From assembly GCA_043806595.1 (NCBI GenBank), contig JAZDGU010000004.1, positions 8,353 through 72,352 on the forward strand: a stretch of DNA of 64,000 nt, given 5' to 3'. The notes under the pieces are model-generated. The model was given only the letters and a program-made list of their open reading frames with translations, did no database searches and was not told the origin of the DNA. The DNA is from Candidatus Micrarchaeota archaeon. GTDB lineage: Archaea > Micrarchaeota > Micrarchaeia > Norongarragalinales > SBBD01. Both the position numbers and the translations under genes were made by a program. Of the stretch, positions 1 through 60,238 are shown piece by piece (position 1 is the first letter of the stretch; every line of letters starts with the position of its first letter).

Positions 1-750
1 GAGCGTGGAACGGAAGTCATGTACAACGGCGTGCCGATAAGCAAGGTCGTCGGCGAGGGCATGGGGATCGGCGACGTAATCGGGCTGCTGTGGTTCAAGA
101 AGAGGCTGCCGCCGTATGCAAGCAAGTTCGTCGAATTGTGCCTGATCATCAGCGCCGACCACGGCCCCGCGGTTTCCGGCGCGCACAACACGATCGTCGC
201 CAGCAGGGCCGGAAAGGACGTGATATCGAGCCTCTGCTCGGGGCTGCTGACCATCGGGCCCCGATTCGGGGGGGCGCTGGATGACGCGGCGAGGTATTTC
301 AAGGAGGCGAAGGACTCGGGCATGGCGCCGCAGGAGTTCGTCGACAGCATGAAGAAGAAGGGCGTGCTGATTCCCGGCATCGGCCACAGGATAAAGAGCG
401 TGCAGAACCCGGACGAGAGGGTGACGCAGCTCAAGGAATACGCCAAAAAGCACTTCAAGTCGACGAAATACCTGGACTACGCGCTCGAGGTCGAGAAAAT
501 CACCACGGGCAAGCGCAACAACCTCATCCTCAACGTCGACGGGTGCATGGCGGTGCTGTGGCTGGACCTGCTGACGTCCTGCGGGGAATTCTCCGAGGAA
601 GAGGTCAAGGACCTCGCGGAGGGCGGGTTCTTCAACGGGCTTTTCGCGCTCGGCAGGAGCATCGGGCTCATCGGCCACGCGCTCGACCAGAAGCGCCTGA
701 AACAGCCCCTGTACCGGCACCCGTGGGACGACATACTCTTTGTCAAGTGA
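1..750 (+). CDS. ATP-citrate lyase / citryl-CoA lyase, citrate-synthase-like C-terminal domain (5' partial, runs off window start)
   Basis: Translation ([16 protein letters not shown] ... NLILNVDG ... [29 protein letters not shown]) closely matches, from memory, the C-terminal citrate-synthase-like region of ATP-citrate lyase. The reading frame is open from base 1. Confidence 0.75.
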
Positions 751-846
751 CCCACCATTCGCCTGCCTTCAGCCAATCGATCCAATACGTGCAACAAAGT
801 AAAGCATTTAAAGTAAGTGCTTGCACATATAATGCGGGTGGAGGCC

Positions 847-1071
847 ATGGTGAACGTCACGGTGTCGGTTCCGGAGGATTTTAAGAAGGAGTTGGATAGG
901 CGGGCGGAAATCAACTGGTCGGAAGTCGCAAGGCAGGCTTGGAAGTCGAAGCTGGACCAGCTGGAGCTCCTCGACAGCCTGACTGCCAAAAGCAAGGCGA
1001 CTGACGAGGACATCGAGGAATTGGGCCGGATGCTCAGAAAAAACATGGCCGACAGGCACAAGAAGGCGTGA
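847..1071 (+). CDS. RHH-type antitoxin (paralog 1 of 3)
   Basis: 74 aa, MVNVTVSVPEDFKKELD ribbon-strand then helices. SD GGTGGAGG upstream. Stop overlaps GTG start of the downstream PIN gene. Paralogous to the 21090 and 56672 genes (shared M-x-N-V-T-x-S-x-P N-terminus). Confidence 0.6.
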   Translation: MVNVTVSVPEDFKKELDRRAEINWSEVARQAWKSKLDQLELLDSLTAKSKATDEDIEELGRMLRKNMADRHKKA

Positions 1072-1478
1072 ACTTGGAGGTCGTGGCAGACACGAACGTA
1101 ATCGTGGCGGCAATCCTGCGGAGGGGGCTTACGCGCAACCTCATCTTCAGCGCAGGGTTGCAACTGATTTCGCCGGATTTCGCATATCAGGAAATCAAAA
1201 ACCACGAGGAAGAGTATCTAAAAAAGTCGGGACTCGAACACAAGGCTTTCGAGCGATCCGTCGAAATCGTGCTTTCGCGAATCACGCCAATACCTGAAGA
1301 GGAATACGGGGGCCAACAAGCGACTGCCAAGGAATTCTCCCCGGATTTGGCGGACTGGCCTTTCTTTGCCTTGTCTCTTGTGAAAAAATGTCCTCTCTGG
1401 AGCAACGACCGCGTGTTGAAAAAGCAAAACCGCGTGCAAGTGATAAGCACGCCGGAACTGCTGGAAATGCTCGGATAA
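1068..1478 (+). CDS. PIN-domain toxin (VapC-like, paralog 1 of 3)
   Basis: 136 aa with acidic PIN residues (VVADTNVIV ... SNDRV). 4-bp overlap with the upstream antitoxin. Paralogs at 21316 and 56909. Confidence 0.7.
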   Translation: MNLEVVADTNVIVAAILRRGLTRNLIFSAGLQLISPDFAYQEIKNHEEEYLKKSGLEHKAFERSVEIVLSRITPIPEEEYGGQQATAKEFSPDLADWPFFALSLVKKCPLWSNDRVLKKQNRVQVISTPELLEMLG

Positions 1479-1576
1479 TAAAAGCAGCCACCCCACCGGC
1501 ACTTCATGCGTGCGGCATACTGTTTGTCAGGTAGCGAAACCGTGGGCCGCATGCAGTGCACGGCCGGCAGGCGAAA

Positions 1577-20184: not shown

Positions 20185-20823
20185 ATGGTTCTGAACCTTG
20201 CTCATGTCGCCATAAAGGGTTGGAAGGGAATGTGGAACGGCAGGAGGGAAGTCTCGGGCCATGTGGTGGTAAGGGGAGCGCATACCCTCTCCGTCATGAC
20301 GTCAAAGTATCGCATCGCATTGAAAAATTGCGATTGCTTCAGCGTTGTGAGCTTTCCCCGACCAGAGCATTTCAGTGATTTAATAAATGCCAGCAGAGGA
20401 ACACATGAAAATGGCCCGTCTTCGTACAATCCCGTGGCCGTCGGAACTGCACACTATGAAATCCGCGGTGGCTACGCGGAACTCGTGTACCTGATGGCGC
20501 ATTACAAGCTGAAGCAGGATGCCCGCCGCCAGGGGCGAGCGGTTTTATCCGAAAAACTGCACGCGCTCCACCACGGCTGGAGACTCCAGAACCTCGAGGC
20601 CGGCATCAGATGGGCTCTCGAGAATGTGGGAGACGTCAGGATTGACAAATACTATCTTGATAATCGGGATCGGAAAAACGTGAGGGACAGTGTCTTCGCG
20701 GTATGCCGTAAGAAACGGTGGAAGCTTGAGGGGCCAACGGAAGAAAATCCTTTGTATTATACGATAAGGAGGCCAGACGGCATGGCCGATACCCCAAAGG
20801 GTAAGAAATACGCGGTTTACTAA
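20185..20823 (+). CDS. hypothetical protein (low-GC islet)
   Basis: 212-aa ORF, about 50% GC locally against about 65% background. No domain recognised. Confidence 0.45.
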   Translation: MVLNLAHVAIKGWKGMWNGRREVSGHVVVRGAHTLSVMTSKYRIALKNCDCFSVVSFPRPEHFSDLINASRGTHENGPSSYNPVAVGTAHYEIRGGYAELVYLMAHYKLKQDARRQGRAVLSEKLHALHHGWRLQNLEAGIRWALENVGDVRIDKYYLDNRDRKNVRDSVFAVCRKKRWKLEGPTEENPLYYTIRRPDGMADTPKGKKYAVY

Positions 20824-20978
20824 CCGTTTCCTCCCCTCGGGGCAACCATTAAAAACCTGCTTTCCCAAACAATTGGTGTCAGCGGTCATAGGCCGGGGGC
20901 AACACCCGTTCCCTTTTCGAACACGGAAGTAAAGCCCCGGTGCGATTCCGTCGGTACTGCCCTGCGGGTGGGAAAGCG

Positions 20979-21013
20979 GGATACCGCTGCGCTTCAACAA
21001 CCCCCAGCGCAGC
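20979..21013 (+). repeat. direct-repeat / hairpin element, upstream copy flanking RHH-PIN module 2
   Basis: GATACCGCTGCGCTT (15 nt exact) plus CAACAACCCCCAGCGCAGC. The inverted GCTGCGC/GCGCAGC arms can form a hairpin. Second copy at 21734. Confidence 0.5.
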
Positions 21014-21063
21014 TTGGGGAAGGGGGGAAAAGCCACCTCAAAGGCAAGGTATTTATATGTGCG

Positions 21064-21084
21064 TTCACATAAAAAATATGTGAA
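21064..21084 (+). promoter_or_regulatory. palindromic operator candidate upstream of antitoxin 2
   Basis: TTCACATA-AAAAA-TATGTGAA, perfect 8-bp arms, ends 5 nt before the ATG at 21090 and overlaps the AT-rich promoter. A GTGAATTT motif is also upstream of antitoxin 3. Confidence 0.45.
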
Positions 21085-21089
21085 TTTAT

Positions 21090-21332
21090 ATGACTAACGT
21101 GACACTGTCCTTCCCGGATGCGTTCTGGAGGAGGATGAAGGCGTTCCCGGAAATCTGCTGGTCGAAGGCAGTGCGGAGCGTCATCGAAGGCAAGCTCGAC
21201 GACTTCGAGGAGGCCGAGCGCCTCGTCGGAAAAAGCCGCTTTCGCGAGGAGGACGTCGCGCGCCTTTCAAAGAAGGTGGACGACGCCATGGCCAGGCATG
21301 CCGGGGCGCTGTTGAATGAAGCTCGTCGTTGA
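21090..21332 (+). CDS. RHH-type antitoxin (paralog 2 of 3)
   Basis: 80 aa, MTNVTLSFPDAF N-terminus paralogous to 847 and 56672. 17-nt overlap with the PIN gene. Confidence 0.6.
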   Translation: MTNVTLSFPDAFWRRMKAFPEICWSKAVRSVIEGKLDDFEEAERLVGKSRFREEDVARLSKKVDDAMARHAGALLNEARR

Positions 21333-21726
21333 CGCCAATATCCTCCTTTCCGCGCTGCTGCGCAAGGGATTGACCCAGCGGCTCTGGTTCCATCCGTCGT
21401 TGCGGCTCAGCGCCCCCGAGTTCCTTCTCGTCGAGGCGCGCGCGCATATAGAGGAAATGAGGCAAAAATACGGCGGCACACAGGACGAGCTGATGCGTGT
21501 GTTCAGCCTGCTGGAGAAACAATTAACCCTGGTTCAGGATGAAAAGCTCCTGCCCTTCCTGCCCGCGGCTTCCACGCTCACCAAGGACAGGAAAGACTTG
21601 CTTTATCTGGCCTGCGCCCTTTATGAGGATGCGGCCTTGTGGACGCACGACAAGGGCTTCAAATCCCAGCGGCGGATCAAAATATACTCCACGCTGGAAC
21701 TCGGGGAAGAAATCGGTTCGCTTTAA
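21316..21726 (+). CDS. PIN-domain toxin (paralog 2 of 3)
   Basis: 136 aa, MKLVVDANILLSALL ... WTHDKGF. PIN acidic residues conserved. Confidence 0.75.
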   Translation: MKLVVDANILLSALLRKGLTQRLWFHPSLRLSAPEFLLVEARAHIEEMRQKYGGTQDELMRVFSLLEKQLTLVQDEKLLPFLPAASTLTKDRKDLLYLACALYEDAALWTHDKGFKSQRRIKIYSTLELGEEIGSL

Positions 21727-21733
21727 GGCCAGT

Positions 21734-21768
21734 GATACCGCTGCGCTTTTCAAAACCCCGGCGCAAGC
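21734..21768 (+). repeat. direct-repeat / hairpin element, downstream copy flanking RHH-PIN module 2
   Basis: GATACCGCTGCGCTT exact, then TTCAAAACCCCGGCGCAAGC. Begins 8 nt after the PIN stop. Confidence 0.5.
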
Positions 21769-21843
21769 CTTACCCGGCTCCGACACGAAATAACCGAACG
21801 CTAGCGCTAGCCGCATAAAAGAAGAAAAGGGGGCCGGAGCCCT

Positions 21844-32221: not shown

Positions 32222-32256
32222 TTTAGTGTAAAAAGTGTTAAAGGTGTTAAACGTGT
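32222..32256 (+). promoter_or_regulatory. three tandem approximately 9-bp repeats (AGTGTAAAA / AGTGTTAAA / GGTGTTAAA) overlapping the start of the vapB-like gene
   Basis: Visible tandem GTGTTAAA units immediately before or over the GTG start codons. Candidate autoregulatory operator. Confidence 0.35.
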
Positions 32257-32519
32257 CCGAATCGGGGCTGATTACGAAGAAGGTGCCGCGCAGGATCGTG
32301 CCGAAGATCCGCAGGCTGCAGGCCAACTACATGCTGAGGCACCGCAGACGGATTTCCGAGGCGGAAATCATCGAGAAGGGGGTCGAGAAACTCACGGAAG
32401 ACGACCTGATGGAAACCGGAAAGAAAAGCGCCAGATGGGAGGACTTTTTCGGAATGGACAAGTCAAGGACAAAAGGAGATTCGCGCACCGATGTTGACAA
32501 GGTAGTTTACGGGATTTGA
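32235..32519 (+). CDS. vapB: VapB-like antitoxin
   Basis: 94 aa, GTG start (alternative GTGs at 32244 and 32253). KKVPRRIVPKIRRL DNA-binding-like N-terminus. 3-nt gap to vapC. Confidence 0.5.
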   Translation: MLKVLNVSESGLITKKVPRRIVPKIRRLQANYMLRHRRRISEAEIIEKGVEKLTEDDLMETGKKSARWEDFFGMDKSRTKGDSRTDVDKVVYGI

Positions 32520-32522
32520 GCC

Positions 32523-32921
32523 ATGATTTTCGTCGACACGAGCATTTTCATAGCCGCGGCGCGCGCCAACGACCCATCCCACGCCCAAGGCTTGGCGCTC
32601 ATACAACGCGCAAAAAGGGAGGGGGAGACCCTCATCACTTCCGACCATGTGCTTGACGAGACTGTGACATACCTGCAGGCAAAGGGAGGGAAGGAGAGGG
32701 CAAGCGAGGCTGGCAGGCAGATGCTGCGCCTGGAGAAGCTTCAAATGGAATACAATTCTCCCCCGCGCACGGACGCCGCCCTGAGGATCGTGGGAAAAAT
32801 CGACGGGATGAGTTTCTGCGACGCCTTGAGCATCGTCGTCATGCAGGAACTCGGAATCAGGACCATCTACTCTTTCGACTCCGACTTCGACAAAATCGCC
32901 GGGATAAGGAGAATCGAATAG
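32523..32921 (+). CDS. vapC: VapC PIN-domain ribonuclease toxin
   Basis: 132 aa. MIFVDTSIFIAA ... ITSDHVLDET ... SFCDA ... YSFDSDF gives the classic PIN acidic quartet. Confidence 0.8.
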   Translation: MIFVDTSIFIAAARANDPSHAQGLALIQRAKREGETLITSDHVLDETVTYLQAKGGKERASEAGRQMLRLEKLQMEYNSPPRTDAALRIVGKIDGMSFCDALSIVVMQELGIRTIYSFDSDFDKIAGIRRIE

Positions 32922-56514: not shown

Positions 56515-56551
56515 GGGAAAGGCTAGGCGGCAGAGGTTTTTATTGGCTTGC

Positions 56552-56585
56552 GGCGCGGGCTCAGACGGCGAGCATGAGGAGGCCG
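56552..56585 (+). repeat. 34-bp perfect direct repeat, upstream copy (pseudo 3' end of small membrane protein gene) flanking RHH-PIN module 3
   Basis: TCAGACGGCGAGCATGAGGAGGCCGATGAACGCG is identical to 57348..57381. Confidence 0.8.
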
Positions 56586-56671
56586 ATGAACGCGGGGAAG
56601 AGACCAGTAAGAAATGAAAAGTATTAAAAATATTAATAGTGTGAATTTTATCAACCGAGGAGGTGATTTGG

Positions 56672-56908
56672 ATGGCGCAGATGCTTTCCGTGCCGCTGCC
56701 GGACGACCTGAAGAAGGACCTCGACAGGCACAAGGAAATTAAGTGGGTGGAGATCGCGAGGCAGGCGCTCAGGGACAAGGTGGAGGCGCTTGACGAGATG
56801 GACGAATTCTTCGCAAAAAGCAGCCTGACGGCGGAGGACGTGGAAAAGCATGCGAGAGCCGTCAGCAAGAACGTGTGGAAGAGGCATAAGAAGGAACTGG
56901 GGCTTTAG
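56672..56908 (+). CDS. RHH-type antitoxin (paralog 3 of 3)
   Basis: 78 aa. MAQMLSVPLPDDLKKDLD. SD GGAGGTGA 6 nt upstream. The ORF track starts at 56663. Confidence 0.6.
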   Translation: MAQMLSVPLPDDLKKDLDRHKEIKWVEIARQALRDKVEALDEMDEFFAKSSLTAEDVEKHARAVSKNVWKRHKKELGL

Positions 56909-57334
56909 ATGCCGATCGAACTAGCAGTGGATGCCAACGTGCTGTTCTCGGCGATGCTCGCGGACGGCACGACCAGGCGGCTCATACTCGACCGGAGGCT
57001 CAGGCTCTGCGCGCCGTCTTATTTGATGGAGGAAATGCTGAGGCACATGCGGGGCGACGACAAGCTCGCAAGAAAGCTGAACCGGACAAAAGAGGAGGCG
57101 GCGATGCAGCTGCAGAGCCTCGGGAGGCACATCGAGGTTGTGCCGCTCGAGGAGTACGGGGCCAGCATACCGGAGGTTCTGAAAGACTGCCCGGATCCCT
57201 TCGATGCCGAGTATCTTGCAGTCGCAAAACGGCGCAGCATCCCATTGTGGACGAACGACAGGAGACTCAAGAACCAGGCGGCCGTTGAAGTGCTGAACAC
57301 GCGCGAGGTCCTCGAACTGCTGGGACGGAAATGA
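56909..57334 (+). CDS. PIN-domain toxin (paralog 3 of 3)
   Basis: 141 aa. MPIELAVDANVLFSAML ... WTNDRRL. ATG abuts the antitoxin stop. Confidence 0.75.
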   Translation: MPIELAVDANVLFSAMLADGTTRRLILDRRLRLCAPSYLMEEMLRHMRGDDKLARKLNRTKEEAAMQLQSLGRHIEVVPLEEYGASIPEVLKDCPDPFDAEYLAVAKRRSIPLWTNDRRLKNQAAVEVLNTREVLELLGRK

Positions 57335-57347
57335 CCGCAGCAGGCGT

Positions 57348-57527
57348 TCAGACGGCGAGCATGAGGAGGCCGATGAACGCGAGGAACACCCCGAAGAGGA
57401 TCACCGCGCCCTGGACGGCGACGCCGAGCATGGCCCAGGCCCCGGCGGACTGGAACCAATAGTACCACGAGGCTGCGATTACCAGGAGGCCGAGGATGAG
57501 AGAAGCTATGCCTGCCTTGCTCAGCAT
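57348..57527 (-). CDS. small membrane protein (59 aa) whose 3' end is duplicated upstream of TA module 3
   Basis: Hand-translated: MLSKAGIASLILGLLVIAASWYYWFQSAGAWAMLGVAVQGAVILFGVFLAFIGLLMLAV. Its last 10 codons plus stop form the 34-bp repeat 57348..57381. Confidence 0.4.
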   Translation of the reverse strand: MLSKAGIASLILGLLVIAASWYYWFQSAGAWAMLGVAVQGAVILFGVFLAFIGLLMLAV

Positions 57528-57545: not shown

Positions 57546-57836
57546 CTACTTGATGAAGTCGTCGAGCAGCTCCACCGCGCGCCTGATGCTCTGCGCGATC
57601 TGCTTCTCGCTCTTTGCGCCGCTGCAGATTACCTTGCCGTTCTTGAACAGCAAAAGCGTGGTTCCGATCTCCTTGAGGCGCATGATGGCGCCCGGGAACT
57701 GCTCGGGCTCGTACTCGACGTTGTCGACTTCCATGGCGATGTTGAACAGGTCGAGCTCGACGTTGAGGTTCGCCGAGGCGACGATGTTCTCCACCTTGAA
57801 GCCCATGTTTATGTGCGGGCGTTTTTTCTTGACCAT
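57546..57836 (-). CDS. tbp: single-repeat TATA-box-binding-protein homolog (half-size TBP, 96 aa)
   Basis: ENIVASANLNVELDLFNIA ... EYEPEQFPGAIMRL ... LLLFKNGKVICSGAKSEKQI matches one TBP repeat (closest to the C-terminal repeat). Clean stop. No second repeat is encoded on either side. AT-rich promoter with TTTAAATA and a leaderless start. Confidence 0.7.
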   Translation of the reverse strand: MVKKKRPHINMGFKVENIVASANLNVELDLFNIAMEVDNVEYEPEQFPGAIMRLKEIGTTLLLFKNGKVICSGAKSEKQIAQSIRRAVELLDDFIK

Positions 57837-59615: not shown

Positions 59616-59729
59616 GGCTCGACTCAGCGCGCATTGGTTCAACCGCTAGTGGCAGCCAGGGTTCGCACTGGAAACGGGGCCGCAAAGAATTTAATATCAT
59701 TTTGGTATCAAATAGTAGGTGAGGCAAGG

Positions 59730-59984
59730 ATGGAGATGGTGGTCAGGATGGAGGGAATGGTCGAGAACGTCCTCAACAGGCTTGTGGAGAAGGGCTACTT
59801 CAAAACCAAGTCCGAGGCGGTGAGGGCGGGAATCCTCGAGCTGGGGAAGGAATACGCGCTTGTTGGGAGTGAGAAATACCTAGTCAGCCGAAAAATCGCG
59901 CGTTTGGAAAGACTGGCTGACCAAGGAAAGCTCAAATTCACCCCGTTGGAAGAAGTTGCCCGCAAGGCAGGCGTGAAAATATGA
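59730..59984 (+). CDS. RHH (CopG-like) antitoxin (paralog B)
   Basis: 84 aa from the ATG after GGTGAGG SD. MEMVVRMEGMVENVLNRLVEKGYFKTKSEAVRAGILELGKEY. The ORF track starts at 59634. Confidence 0.6.
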   Translation: MEMVVRMEGMVENVLNRLVEKGYFKTKSEAVRAGILELGKEYALVGSEKYLVSRKIARLERLADQGKLKFTPLEEVARKAGVKI

Positions 59985-60238
59985 ATTATGGGGTAGTCTT
60001 CGAATCGGCTGCGGAGAATCAGCTTCTCGGCAAAGATTTTTCGGTACGCAAGAGGCTGATCCAGCGCATCGCCAGAATGCCATTTGAAACCCCGGGGCGC
60101 CATATGGAAAAGGGCCTGCCGTATTTTGTAGCGCAAGCTGGCCAGTATCGGATAATTTATACCTGCAAGGAAGGAGTGAAACGCATTTATTTCGTCGGAG
60201 ACCACAAGGAGTACGAGCGCTGGTACAAACAGTTGTGA
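59981..60238 (+). CDS. relE: RelE/ParE-family toxin (paralog B)
   Basis: 85 aa with 4-nt overlap with the antitoxin. YRIIYTCKEGVKRIYFVGDHKEYERWY. Confidence 0.7.
   Translation: MNYGVVFESAAENQLLGKDFSVRKRLIQRIARMPFETPGRHMEKGLPYFVAQAGQYRIIYTCKEGVKRIYFVGDHKEYERWYKQL

What the first reader, a model, noticed from the sequence alone, without database searches (positions are those of the whole stretch)
20185..21768. Low-GC islet plus second RHH-PIN cassette flanked by hairpin-forming direct repeats with the same geometry
GATACCGCTGCGCTT (15 exact nt, about 35 nt degenerate) with inverted arms GCTGCGC/GCGCAGC lies 77 nt upstream of antitoxin 2 and 8 nt downstream of the PIN stop, the same spacing as cassette 3. 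The adjacent 212-aa ORF is about 50% GC against about 65% background. Two paralogous TA modules each framed by their own direct repeats argues for cassette-like mobility of this TA family.
Basis: seen in the sequence. Interest (0 to 1): 0.6.

Follow-up and report, generated by a model that had tools for sequence, protein, structure and literature searches.

The report
Toxin-antitoxin cassette inserted in 5S rRNA end
A 714-base toxin-antitoxin gene pair has been inserted into the tail of the 5S ribosomal RNA gene of a tiny (DPANN) archaeon, duplicating about 40 bases of that tail, and the same signature recurs around related cassettes in many genomes, showing that this two-gene module moves on its own without carrying any recombination gene.

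Summary
The repeat is real. A relative (L116) has the same gene order with a single copy of this roughly 40-bp segment and no TA genes. Three other relatives (L081, L115, L119) carry the cassette between two or three copies.

The feature is therefore a 714-bp promoter/RHH/PIN_2 cassette (21020-21733) inserted with a roughly 40-bp target duplication. It is not a REP or terminator element.

The other two paralogous cassettes in the window are framed by duplicated 3' ends of local protein genes. Among related loci, 16 of 74 have such flanking repeats, against about 1% expected. These include tRNA 3' ends and tandem arrays.

Related cassettes share the same target type. In the tRNA-Asn lineage the right repeat is a hybrid of cassette and local tRNA sequence. 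The repeats also track local 5S variants. Together this favours Campbell-type, att-like integration by a recombinase acting in trans or by host recombination.

The closest precedent is "insertion with long target duplication" of restriction-modification genes in bacteria.

ORF212 has low GC (52.6%) but is a syntenic, hypervariable gene and not part of the insert.

The parts
20185..20823 (+). ORF212: low-GC, hypervariable gene upstream of the 5S gene. It is context, not part of the insert.
   Evidence: GC 52.6%, GC3 0.61. 36 remote homologues of 183-230 aa plus one 1618-aa protein. No Pfam or NCBIfam hit. Positional homologues in L116, L081 and L119 are only 27-32% identical to it, while neighbouring genes are 72-86% identical.
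20848..20856 (+). TATA-like box (ATTAAAAAC) about 26 nt upstream of the 5S start. Presumed 5S promoter.
   Evidence: Read from the sequence. The equivalent TATAAAAAC is present upstream of the 5S gene in L116 and L081. The role as a promoter is inferred.
20878..20992 (+). 5S rRNA gene, the target of the insertion
   Evidence: Rfam RF00001, 63.3 bits, E 6.1e-11, full length. 113/115, 109/115 and 107/115 identical to the 5S genes of L081, L119 and L116.
20980..21019 (+). Left copy of the duplicated target: last 13 nt of the 5S gene plus the trailer hairpin through TTGGG(G)
   Evidence: Aligns to the single copy in the empty site L116 up to TTGGG and then diverges. Hairpin arms at 20986-20992 and 21007-21013, -14.4 kcal/mol, with an identical stem in L116.
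21020..21733 (+). Inserted cassette (714 bp): 70-nt promoter/operator region, antitoxin, toxin, and 7 nt after the stop codon
   Evidence: Absent between the 5S gene and the next gene in L116. Present in L081, L115 and L119. GC 56.3%.
21050..21058 (+). TATA-like box (TATTTATAT) of the cassette's own promoter
   Evidence: Read from the sequence. An equivalent AT-rich box precedes the operator in most related cassettes. The role as a promoter is inferred.
21064..21084 (+). Perfect palindrome TTCACATA-N5-TATGTGAA just upstream of the ATG. Presumed operator for the RHH antitoxin.
   Evidence: Read from the sequence. The CACATA...TATGTG palindrome recurs at the same position in most of the related cassettes printed and in L081 and L119, but not in all (for example L066, L078 and cassette 3). 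Its function is inferred.
21090..21332 (+). Antitoxin, 80 aa (MTNVTLSFPD...), RHH_12-type
   Evidence: 97.5% identical to the L081 antitoxin, which is tagged PF26688 RHH_12. Weak VapB match in NCBIfam. The 80-aa length and N-terminal motif are conserved in nearly all of the 80 loci.
21316..21726 (+). Toxin, 136 aa, PIN_2 domain nuclease. Overlaps the antitoxin gene by 17 nt.
   Evidence: Pfam PF10130, E 1.9e-21. D6, E40, D94 and D112 are invariant in a 35-sequence alignment. 71 homologues, mostly from Micrarchaeota and Iainarchaeum/Diapherotrites.
21734..21772 (+). Right copy of the duplicated target: a pseudo-copy of the 5S 3' end plus a decayed trailer hairpin
   Evidence: The first 15 nt are identical to the left copy. 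Hairpin weakened to -9.6 kcal/mol. Orthologous copies follow the PIN stop in L081, L115 and L119.
700..752 (+). Cassette 1, left repeat: the 3' end, including the stop codon, of the citrate-synthase-domain gene (19-750)
   Evidence: Two blocks (16/21 and 17/21 identical, with a 2-nt shift) match 1482-1534. Score 26 against a shuffle maximum of 22. This repeat is degenerate and borderline on its own.
847..1478 (+). Cassette 1: antitoxin 847-1071 and PIN_2 toxin 1068-1478
   Evidence: tblastn and Pfam PIN_2, E 3.5e-24.
1482..1534 (+). Cassette 1, right repeat: a decayed copy of the citrate-synthase gene's 3' end, starting 3 nt after the PIN stop
56550..56599 (+). Cassette 3, left repeat: a pseudo-copy of the last 12 codons, the stop codon and the trailer of the 59-aa membrane-protein gene (minus strand)
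   Evidence: 44/50 identical to 57337-57386, with a 34-nt exact core. This is the only repeat pair recovered by a whole-window self-BLAST, E 4e-12.
56672..57334 (+). Cassette 3: antitoxin 56672-56908 and PIN_2 toxin 56909-57334
   Evidence: PIN_2, E 8.8e-16.
57337..57386 (+). Cassette 3, right repeat: the intact 3' end of the 59-aa membrane-protein gene (57348-57527, minus strand)
   Evidence: The native copy folds into a hairpin (-18.2 kcal/mol, z -3.2) that the pseudo-copy has lost.

Best explanation
What it is. A self-contained type II toxin-antitoxin operon sits as a 714-bp insertion in the 3' end of the 5S rRNA gene. It has its own TATA box, a palindromic operator, an 80-aa RHH antitoxin and a 136-aa PIN_2 toxin. 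The last 13 nt of the 5S gene plus its roughly 27-nt trailer hairpin are present on both sides of the insert. The left copy completes the working 5S gene. The right copy is a relic that starts 7 nt after the toxin stop codon.

Shown. It is an insertion with a roughly 40-bp duplication of a sequence that is single-copy in a relative. The cassette contains nothing except the TA operon. The same arrangement frames the two paralogous cassettes in this window and about a fifth of related cassettes in other archaeal genomes, using different local sequences each time: tRNA-Asn, tRNA-Ala, tRNA-Leu, 5S, and the ends of protein genes.

Inferred mechanism. The cassette behaves as a minimal integrative element without an integrase. 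A small, probably circular, form carrying the TA operon plus one copy of the repeat recombines with the matching 3' end of a conserved gene. This is Campbell-type, att x att recombination. It regenerates the gene on one side and leaves a partial copy on the other. Recombination between the two repeats can release the cassette again. The recombinase is not encoded in the cassette. It is either a tyrosine recombinase acting in trans or the host's homologous recombination acting on 15-110 bp of identity.

Once the cassette is in place, addiction (a stable toxin and a labile antitoxin, established knowledge for type II TA systems) penalises its loss. This explains why such a small selfish unit persists in a streamlined genome.
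For: Insertion and duplication.
- The empty site L116 has beta-CASP, the ORF212 homologue, the 5S gene, one copy of GATACCGCTGCGCTTTTATAATTCCCAGCGCAGCTTGGG, then the downstream genes, and no TA.
- The filled relatives are L081, L115 and L119.
- The insert contains only the TA operon.

Generality.
- 16 of 74 related loci have flanking direct repeats scoring at least 30. The rate in permuted pairs is 0.9%, and the inverted-orientation control gives 1 of 74.
- Repeat sequences differ between loci and include tRNA 3' ends.
- Cassettes 85-94% identical in DNA between species share homology only from about -36 to -190 nt upstream of the antitoxin to about 0 to +170 nt past the toxin stop.

Evidence favouring att-like recombination over a random staggered cut.
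1. Cassette lineages keep one target type. The window, L081, L115 and L119 use the 5S gene. L031, L034, L036 and L040 use tRNA-Asn. Three hot-spring clades use tRNA-Ala, in both the CGC and the UGC isoacceptor genes. L010, L013, L014, L018 and L048 use one conserved 45-nt element.
2. In the tRNA-Asn lineage the right repeat is a hybrid. After the PIN stop comes a cassette-borne imperfect mimic of the tRNA (AGAGAAAGTG..). From GTTAACCAG onward the sequence is identical to the local tRNA variant.
3. There are tandem arrays at one site: L119 has three copies of the 5S end, and L034 reads tRNA-Asn, MazEF-like pair, copy, RHH-PIN, copy, GNAT gene, copy.
4. The 5' boundary of the repeat is at GATAC in every 5S copy.
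5. Right copies match the lineage-specific 5S variant where the TA is intact: L119 has GATACTGCTGCAC in all three copies. The right copy has decayed in L115, where an IS element truncates the PIN gene.
6. Each repeat has an exact core with diverged arms: 15 nt here, 34 nt in cassette 3.

No recombinase nearby. No integrase or transposase Pfam hit was found in about 40 window proteins, and no such family was listed among those hit by two or more of the 67 large ORFs tested from 26 repeat-bearing or tRNA-array loci; single-member hits were only partly displayed, so isolated integrases are not excluded.
Against: - No recombinase has been identified, and no free circular form was seen: none of four short metagenome contigs had terminal overlaps.
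- The cassette ends have no conserved terminal motifs or inverted repeats that a dedicated enzyme could recognise.
- Cassettes 1 and 3 sit in the ends of lineage-specific protein genes. A cassette-borne att would have had to be acquired anew for each, so at least the first insertion at each new site needs another mechanism.
- The correlation between cassette lineage and target could partly reflect vertical inheritance of old insertions. TA divergence between the window and L081 (PIN 84%, antitoxin 97.5%) is similar to that of the flanking MscS-like gene (79%).
- The tracking of local variants rests on four genomes.
Confidence: 0.55

Rival explanations
1. [quoted passage not shown] This was proposed for restriction-modification gene complexes. 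Selection then keeps only events near gene ends, where the duplication restores the gene.
For: - Repeat length varies from 12 to 110 bp and targets are very diverse, including lineage-specific protein gene ends (cassettes 1 and 3, L001, L030).
- The cassette has no conserved termini.
- Right boundaries sometimes cut into the last PIN codons (L030, L059, L066, L069), as expected for breakpoints that do not depend on sequence.
- Repeats that span gene ends are the pattern reported for RM systems (PMC2853133).
- Some event of this kind is logically needed to found each new target.
Against: - The same target with the same boundary recurs within a cassette lineage, including two different tRNA-Ala genes.
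- The hybrid right repeat in the tRNA-Asn lineage carries cassette-specific sequence shared by three genomes. A duplication of local DNA cannot produce this.
- Arrays grow at one site.
- Repeats track local 5S variants long after the insertion.
Confidence: 0.25
2. Remnant of a larger integrated element. A plasmid or virus with its own integrase integrated at the 5S, tRNA or gene end. Deletions later removed everything except the addictive TA pair and the att repeats.
For: - tRNA 3' ends are classic integrase targets.
- Arrays downstream of tRNA-Asn and tRNA-Ala contain almost only addiction-type genes (MazEF-like, RelE-like, Fic/Doc, GNAT, PIN), as expected if only addictive genes survive erosion.
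- Sulfolobus and thaumarchaeal studies report many decayed integrated elements at tRNA genes (PMC3718332, PMC6563490).
Against: - The geometry is too tight and too reproducible for random erosion. In many independent loci the right repeat starts -5 to +24 nt from the toxin stop, and the left repeat ends 59-134 nt before the antitoxin start, with no gene fragments in between.
- The insert here is exactly promoter plus two genes (714 bp).
- Near-identical cassettes in different contexts share only the cassette itself.
- No family members were found on viral contigs.
Confidence: 0.12
3. The cassette mobilises itself. The PIN nuclease, guided by the RHH protein, makes the breaks at structured gene ends, so the TA pair would be its own transposase.
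For: - All three RHH-PIN_2 cassettes in the window have repeats, whereas a fourth TA pair of another PIN family (32235-32921) has none.
- The cassette has no other genes.
Against: - Other cassette types in the same arrays (MazEF-like, GNAT, RelE-like) are bounded by the same partial tRNA copies, so the process is not specific to PIN_2.
- PIN toxins of TA systems are known as RNases (established knowledge).
- The cassette has no conserved ends.
Confidence: 0.05
4. The repeat is a dispersed REP-like or terminator element, or a chance match.
For: A 15-mer pair is not significant at the scale of the whole window. The repeat contains a hairpin.
Against: - There are only two copies in 64 kb, even with 3 mismatches allowed.
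- The whole-window self-BLAST finds no dispersed family.
- One copy is the 5S gene end.
- The segment is single-copy in the empty site and duplicated at the same place in three relatives.
Confidence: 0.02

Closest known systems
Insertion with long target duplication of restriction-modification gene complexes (Nobusato et al. 2000, Gene 259:99; Furuta, Abe and Kobayashi 2010, NAR, PMC2853133)
   Same: In both cases a small addictive gene complex is inserted with no mobility gene of its own. It is flanked by direct repeats longer than 30 bp that are single-copy in the empty site. The repeats vary in length and often span the start or stop of a target gene, so that the gene stays intact. A life cycle that uses the repeats has been proposed.
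   Different: The cargo here is a type II toxin-antitoxin pair, not an RM system. The hosts are DPANN archaea, and no archaeal case survived the screen in that paper. The targets include a 5S rRNA gene and tRNA genes. Here there is evidence for lineage-specific, att-like targets, hybrid repeats and arrays, which that work attributes to a separate, integrase-linked class.
tRNA-targeting integrative elements and their integrase-less derivatives (attL/attR repeats at the 3' ends of tRNA genes; cis-mobilisable elements, CIMEs, in bacteria; decayed integrated elements in Sulfolobus and Thaumarchaeota, PMC3718332, PMC6563490)
   Same: Direct repeats overlap the 3' end of a stable-RNA gene. The gene is regenerated on one side. 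Tandem accretion occurs at the same site. The att is a hybrid of element and host sequence.
   Different: There is no integrase in or next to the element. The unit is only about 0.7-0.9 kb, whereas the smallest thaumarchaeal cryptic element reported is 2.6 kb and, by definition, has an integrase. The target here is a 5S rRNA gene. Protein gene ends are also used.
Toxin-antitoxin gene cassettes of chromosomal integrons (for example the Vibrio superintegron; from my own knowledge)
   Same: Both are TA operons with their own promoter that behave as small, discrete, repeat-bounded cassettes, sometimes in arrays.
   Different: Integron cassettes are bounded by attC sites, which are structured imperfect palindromes with conserved core sites, and are inserted by IntI at attI without target duplication. 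Here the repeats are copies of the local target gene end. The hairpin belongs to the 5S trailer and is present in the empty site. No integron integrase was found.
VapBC-type (PIN toxin) type II TA systems of archaea
   Same: Both have an antitoxin gene upstream that overlaps a PIN-domain toxin gene, a palindromic operator and conserved acidic catalytic residues.
   Different: The toxin belongs to Pfam PIN_2 (PF10130), not the classical PIN/VapC family PF01850. The antitoxin is RHH_12. No solved structure was found by sequence. Sulfolobus vapBC movement has been ascribed to flanking IS copies (PMC3718332), which are absent here.

Membership tests
Type II toxin-antitoxin system, RHH antitoxin with PIN toxin | Two small adjacent or overlapping genes, with the antitoxin first | tested here: met
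   21090-21332 (80 aa) and 21316-21726 (136 aa) overlap by 17 nt. The same architecture is seen in most of the 80 related loci.
Type II toxin-antitoxin system, RHH antitoxin with PIN toxin | Toxin with a PIN domain and its conserved acidic residues | tested here: met
   Pfam PIN_2, E 1.9e-21. D6, E40, D94 and D112 are invariant in alignment A1.
Type II toxin-antitoxin system, RHH antitoxin with PIN toxin | Antitoxin with a ribbon-helix-helix DNA-binding domain | tested here: inconclusive
   The Pfam copy searched here gave no significant hit for this protein, and NCBIfam gave only a weak VapB match at 0.0088. The 97.5%-identical L081 protein and the L118 and L119 antitoxins are tagged PF26688 RHH_12 in precomputed hits.
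Type II toxin-antitoxin system, RHH antitoxin with PIN toxin | Toxicity of the toxin and its neutralisation by the antitoxin | not testable with these tools
   This needs expression experiments.
Insertion with long target duplication (as defined for RM systems, PMC2853133) | Flanking direct repeats longer than 30 bp that are single-copy in an empty-site genome | tested here: met
   About 40 bp are duplicated in the window. One copy is present in L116, which has conserved flanks on both sides.
Insertion with long target duplication (as defined for RM systems, PMC2853133) | No transposase, integrase or other mobile element within the insert | tested here: met
   The 714-bp insert holds only the promoter, the antitoxin and the toxin.
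Insertion with long target duplication (as defined for RM systems, PMC2853133) | The two repeats derive only from the local target, so they are identical when formed and contain no element-borne homology | tested here: inconclusive
   This cannot be decided for the old 5S insertion. It is contradicted in the tRNA-Asn lineage by a hybrid right repeat.
Site-specific integrative element (att-type) | attL and attR direct repeats overlapping the 3' end of a tRNA, rRNA or protein gene, with the gene regenerated | tested here: met
   The 5S gene is intact with the left copy. tRNA cases are L007, L029, L031, L034, L040 and L060.
Site-specific integrative element (att-type) | The element encodes its own integrase | tested here: not met
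   There is no such gene in the insert. No integrase Pfam hit was found among about 40 window proteins, and no integrase family was listed among those hit by two or more of the 67 ORFs tested from 26 loci; single-member hits were only partly displayed.
Site-specific integrative element (att-type) | Repeated use of the same site, giving tandem arrays | tested here: met
   L119 has three copies of the 5S end. Arrays occur at tRNA-Asn and tRNA-Ala.
Integron gene cassette | The cassette ends in an attC site (a cassette-borne imperfect palindrome with conserved core sites) next to an intI/attI platform | tested here: not met
   The hairpin is the native 5S trailer and is present in the empty site. 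The repeats differ at every locus. No integrase was found.
REP-like or terminator repeat family | Many copies at unrelated intergenic sites | tested here: not met
   There are two copies in 64 kb with up to 3 mismatches allowed. The self-BLAST found no dispersed family.
DNA transposon or MITE | Terminal inverted repeats and a short target duplication of fixed length | tested here: not met
   The cassette ends show no conserved or inverted termini. Duplications range from 12 to 110 bp.

The most novel reading that the evidence does not exclude
RHH-PIN_2 cassettes, and neighbouring small addiction cassettes, of DPANN archaea may form a previously unrecognised class of minimal mobile element of about 0.75 kb with no recombinase gene. 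It would propagate through a portable copy of the 3' end of a conserved gene (5S rRNA or tRNA) by cycles of repeat-mediated excision and Campbell-type reintegration, carried out by host recombination alone. The toxin-antitoxin pair would provide the only 'maintenance' function. The most extreme version, in which the PIN nuclease itself makes the breaks, is not excluded but is disfavoured.
Probability: 0.3. Interest if true: 0.8.

Novelty: new variant of a known kind. Interest (0 to 1): 0.6.

Why it matters
How toxin-antitoxin pairs move between genomes has long been inferred from their patchy distribution. It has rarely been tied to a concrete DNA signature when no transposon, integron or prophage is involved.

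Here the unit of movement can be read directly: promoter plus two genes, 714 bp. Its empty site, its duplicated target and many independent sister events are all available. This makes the mechanism testable, by looking for circular junctions in reads, by checking dependence on RadA or a Xer-like recombinase, and by measuring the minimal core length.

It extends the "long target duplication" phenomenon known for restriction-modification genes in bacteria to TA systems and to archaea. It shows that a 5S rRNA gene can serve as an integration site. It also suggests that gene-end and tRNA-linked arrays of addiction cassettes are a significant route of gene flux in streamlined DPANN genomes.

Tried and rejected
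- A scan of JGI metagenome contigs for a 23-nt 5S pattern returned 33 loci, none a close relative and none with the TA. It gave no additional empty or filled sites.
- A viral-contig scan with the PIN alignment found no relatives.
- The exact-protein look-up for the window's own PIN found nothing.
- The last homologue search, meant to find an empty site for cassette 3 using the archaemetzincin neighbour, was wasted on a frame error. The cassette 3 and cassette 1 insertions therefore rest on internal evidence only.
- I tested whether hairpin potential is a general property of the repeats. It is not: the mean of the minimum z-scores is -1.18 against -0.99 in controls.
- I looked for terminal inverted repeats or conserved motifs at the cassette ends and found none.
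- I looked for circular short contigs and found none.
- I checked a fourth TA pair (VapBC-like, 32235-32921) and the small gene pair at 59634-60238 for flanking repeats. The first had none (score 17). The second was marginal (score 23, shuffle maximum 22).
- The integron attC reading was rejected because the hairpin pre-exists in the empty site.
- There is no solved structure related by sequence.
Full report
**Observation.** The 15-mer GATACCGCTGCGCTT occurs exactly twice in the window, at 20980-20994 and 21734-21748, even when three mismatches are allowed. The match extends to 32-35 nt at 81-85% identity with a spacing of 754 nt.

A 15-mer pair is not unusual on the scale of 64 kb. The positioned alignment is unusual. 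Comparing the 126 nt after the PIN stop with the 400 nt before the antitoxin gives a score of 35, against a shuffle maximum of 23-30. Only 0.45% of permuted locus pairs reach that score.

The inverted arms are present. In the left copy GCTGCGC (20986-20992) pairs with GCGCAGC (21007-21013), folding at -14.4 kcal/mol. The right copy folds less well, at -9.6 kcal/mol. ORF212 is 52.6% GC against 62.0% for the window, with GC3 of 0.61 against roughly 0.85-0.93 for neighbouring genes.

**What the left repeat is.** Rfam places a full-length 5S rRNA gene at 20878-20992 (63.3 bits, E 6e-11). ARAGORN finds no tRNA gene in the window. The left repeat is therefore the last 13 nt of the 5S gene (the 3' strand of helix I) plus its trailer, and the hairpin is formed between the 5S end and the trailer.

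The organism is a Micrarchaeota (DPANN) archaeon. The PIN protein is 100% identical to an NCBI MAG protein of that name. The surrounding genes include PCNA, a beta-CASP nuclease, archaemetzincin and a thermosome subunit.

**Empty and filled sites.** Homologues of the adjacent MscS-like gene led to two informative contigs, and PIN homologues led to two more.

- L116 (GCA_043807785.1; beta-CASP 77%, PCNA 86%, MscS 72% identical to the window) has this order: beta-CASP, a 210-aa positional homologue of ORF212, the 5S gene, one copy of GATACCGCTGCGCTTTTATAATTCCCAGCGCAGCTTGGG, a small membrane-type gene, then MscS. It has no TA genes.
- L081 (PIN 84%, antitoxin 97.5%, MscS 79%) has the 5S gene, the cassette and a second copy of the 5S end 8 nt after the PIN stop.
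- L115 has the 3' part of the PIN gene, truncated by an IS-like gene, followed by a decayed right copy.
- L119 (5S 109/115 identical; antitoxin 75%, PIN 62%) has three copies of the 5S end: one in the gene, one about 150 nt downstream just before the cassette, and one after the PIN stop. The trailer of the last copy matches the L116 trailer.

Alignment of all copies puts the duplicated target at GATACC...TTGGG, about 40 bp (window 20980-21019 and 21734-~21772). The insert is 21020-21733, which is 714 bp. It consists of 70 nt with a TATA-like box and the perfect palindrome TTCACATA-N5-TATGTGAA, the two genes, and 7 nt after the stop.

The hairpin is thus a native feature of the 5S trailer, not of the cassette. 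L116 is the most divergent of these genomes by MscS and 5S identity. A single old insertion is therefore parsimonious, although loss from L116 by recombination between the repeats cannot be excluded.

**The other cassettes in the window.** tblastn finds two paralogous RHH-PIN_2 pairs, at 847-1478 and 56672-57334. Their PIN proteins are only 31-32% identical to this one.

- Cassette 3 is framed by 50-nt repeats (44/50 identical, 34-nt exact core; the only repeat pair recovered by a whole-window self-BLAST). The right copy is the true 3' end of a 59-aa membrane-protein gene on the minus strand. The left copy is a pseudo-copy of its last 12 codons, stop codon and trailer.
- Cassette 1 is followed, 3 nt after the PIN stop, by a degenerate copy of the last roughly 50 nt, including the stop codon, of the upstream citrate-synthase-domain gene. 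This one is borderline on its own.

In all three cassettes the insert is about 0.71-0.74 kb. The right repeat starts 2-8 nt after the toxin stop, and the left repeat ends 70-95 nt before the antitoxin start. A fourth TA pair of the classical PIN family (32235-32921) has no repeats.

**Family-wide pattern.** Eighty loci encoding relatives were fetched from species-representative genomes. They come mostly from Micrarchaeota and Iainarchaeum, with some from Promethearchaeota. Nearly all have the same 80-aa antitoxin and roughly 136-aa toxin.

In 16 of 74 usable loci the sequence just after the toxin stop is repeated just upstream of the promoter, with an alignment score of at least 30. The rate in permuted pairs is 0.9%, and the inverted-orientation control gives 1 of 74.

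The repeats are different at each place:
- the 3' ends of tRNA-Leu (L007), tRNA-Asn (L031, L034, L036, L040) and tRNA-Ala (L019, L029), and of a tRNA on the opposite strand (L060);
- the 3' end of a 509-aa ORF (L001);
- the first 100 nt of a downstream gene (L030, 110-nt repeat, 97% identical);
- intergenic sequences.

Cassettes that are 85-94% identical in DNA between different species share homology only from about -36 to -190 nt upstream of the antitoxin to about 0 to +170 nt past the toxin stop. No conserved terminal motif or inverted repeat marks the cassette ends. In four loci the right boundary lies within the last PIN codons. Hairpin potential is not enriched in the repeats. No relative is found on viral contigs.

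**Mechanism.** That the TA pair is itself the unit of insertion is well supported. Several observations point to recombination with a cassette-borne copy of the target (Campbell-type, att-like), not to a purely local staggered-cut duplication.

1. Cassette lineages keep one target type. These are the 5S gene (four genomes), tRNA-Asn, tRNA-Ala in both the CGC and the UGC genes within single cassette clades, and one conserved 45-nt element with C-box-like and D-box-like motifs in five Iainarchaeum-type loci, in either orientation.
2. In L031, L034 and L040 the right junction is a hybrid. A cassette-specific imperfect mimic of the tRNA is shared by the three genomes. It is followed, from the anticodon loop onward, by sequence identical to each genome's own tRNA variant.
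3. Arrays grow at one site. L119 has three 5S ends. L034 reads tRNA-Asn, MazEF-like pair, partial tRNA, RHH-PIN, partial tRNA, GNAT gene, partial tRNA. L036 and L047 carry RelE-like and Fic/Doc genes in the same kind of array.
4. The 5' boundary is at GATAC in all 5S copies.
5. The right copies match the lineage-specific 5S end where the TA is intact (GATACTGCTGCAC in all three L119 copies). The right copy has decayed where an IS element has killed the PIN gene (L115). This suggests continuing exchange between the copies.

There are points against this reading.
- No integrase or transposase was detected in about 40 window proteins, nor as a family listed among those hit by two or more of the 67 ORFs tested from 26 repeat-bearing or tRNA-array loci; single-member hits were only partly displayed.
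- No circular contig was seen.
- The protein-gene targets of cassettes 1 and 3 imply that new targets are founded by some other, illegitimate event.

I therefore rank the explanations as follows:
- att-like integration by a trans-acting recombinase or host homologous recombination: 0.55;
- de novo long target duplication: 0.25;
- erosion of larger integrated elements: 0.12 (the tight, reproducible geometry argues against it);
- self-mobilisation by the PIN protein: 0.05 (other cassette types in the arrays have the same borders);
- a dispersed repeat or a chance match: 0.02.

**The low-GC ORF.** ORF212 is a real gene. It has 36 remote homologues, all but one of 183-230 aa, but no family annotation. 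A gene of this family precedes the 5S gene in L116, L081 and L119, so it is syntenic and not part of the TA insert. It is hypervariable. The window protein is only 27-32% identical to the others, and L081 and L116 are 54% identical to each other, while the 5S genes are 93-98% and PCNA 86% identical. Together with its GC3 of 0.61, this suggests rapid diversification or replacement in place by a distant homologue.

**Comparison with what is known.** The closest described phenomenon is "insertion with long target duplication" of restriction-modification gene complexes. These have repeats longer than 30 bp of variable length, no mobility genes, and repeats that often span a gene start or stop. The mechanism is unknown, and no archaeal case was recovered (PMC2853133). 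In the paper library searched, this idea is cited in TA reviews only as an analogy.

Movement of Sulfolobus vapBC has been attributed to flanking IS copies (PMC3718332). Thaumarchaeal cryptic integrated elements are at least 2.6 kb and are defined by an integrase (PMC6563490). Integron TA cassettes differ in having attC sites and no target duplication.

**Verdict.** The repeat is reinterpreted as a duplicated 5S rRNA gene end. The finding is a new variant of a known kind: a minimal, integrase-less toxin-antitoxin cassette integrated at gene 3' ends in DPANN archaea.

The main limits are these:
- the 5S insertion is old, so its two repeat copies cannot discriminate between mechanisms;
- empty sites for cassettes 1 and 3 were not obtained;
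- the correlation between cassette lineage and target may be partly vertical inheritance;
- no recombinase or free form has been observed.

Noticed in passing
window 20185-20823 (+); L116 3061-3693 (-); L081 1-402; L119 72-638: The gene immediately upstream of the 5S rRNA gene belongs to an unannotated family of about 190-230 aa and is hypervariable. It is 26-54% identical among lineages whose 5S genes are 93-98% identical and, for the window/L115/L116 pairs compared, PCNA about 86%. The window copy has atypical codon usage (GC3 0.61) and a C-terminal 70 aa that cannot be aligned.
   Followed up: partly
window 57549-57836 (-): A 96-aa protein consists of a single TBP repeat (Pfam TBP, E 2.8e-28, one repeat). 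Canonical TATA-binding proteins have two repeats. It lies directly next to the cassette 3 target gene.
   Followed up: partly
window 32235-32921 (+): A fourth toxin-antitoxin-like pair: a 94-aa ORF plus a 132-aa classical PIN/VapC protein (PF01850, E 1.3e-16). It has no flanking direct repeats.
   Followed up: yes
L115 5250-6093 (Logan SRR32167786): In this relative the orthologous PIN gene is truncated by an inserted gene that looks like an IS transposase. The right-hand 5S-end copy has accumulated substitutions (GACACCGCCCGCTC), unlike the copies in genomes with an intact TA.
   Followed up: partly
L119 785-960: Between the 5S gene and the cassette lies a filler of about 150 nt with two perfect palindromes (GGAAACTG-C-CAGTTTCC and GAAGAC-TTTAAG-GTCTTC). 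It is bounded by an extra copy of the 5S 3' end. It has no ORF and no Rfam hit. It may be the remnant of another small insert at the same site.
   Followed up: partly
L034 2395-4814; L036 2477-6405; L047 1017-4520: Arrays lie downstream of tRNA-Asn or tRNA-Ala in hot-spring Micrarchaeota. They consist almost entirely of addiction-type genes (MazEF-like, RelE-like, Fic/Doc, GNAT, a kinase-like gene, RHH-PIN). In the tRNA-Asn arrays (L034, L036) successive units are separated by partial copies (12-89 nt) of the tRNA 3' end; in L047 only one weak 14-nt copy was found.
   Followed up: partly
L010 2105-2145, L013 3627-3678, L014 3640-3700, L018 3634-3704, L048 3625-3673 and their right-hand copies: The flanking repeats of five Iainarchaeum-type loci are copies of one conserved element, consensus GCCGATGAnGAnCTGACAATTAnnCTGA, with C-box-like and D-box-like motifs. 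It occurs in either orientation relative to the cassette and has no Rfam match. It may be a small-RNA gene used as a target, or a cassette-borne att.
   Followed up: partly
L081 530-572 and 1289-1330: Both copies of the 5S trailer in L081 share a derived AGTGG where the window and the empty site have AGCGC. This shifts the register of the hairpin and suggests gene conversion between the two repeats.
   Followed up: no
window 59634-60238 (+): Two small overlapping ORFs (116 and 85 aa) have low GC3 (0.61-0.62) and no Pfam hit. They could be another small acquired module. The score for flanking repeats is marginal (23, against a shuffle maximum of 22).
   Followed up: partly
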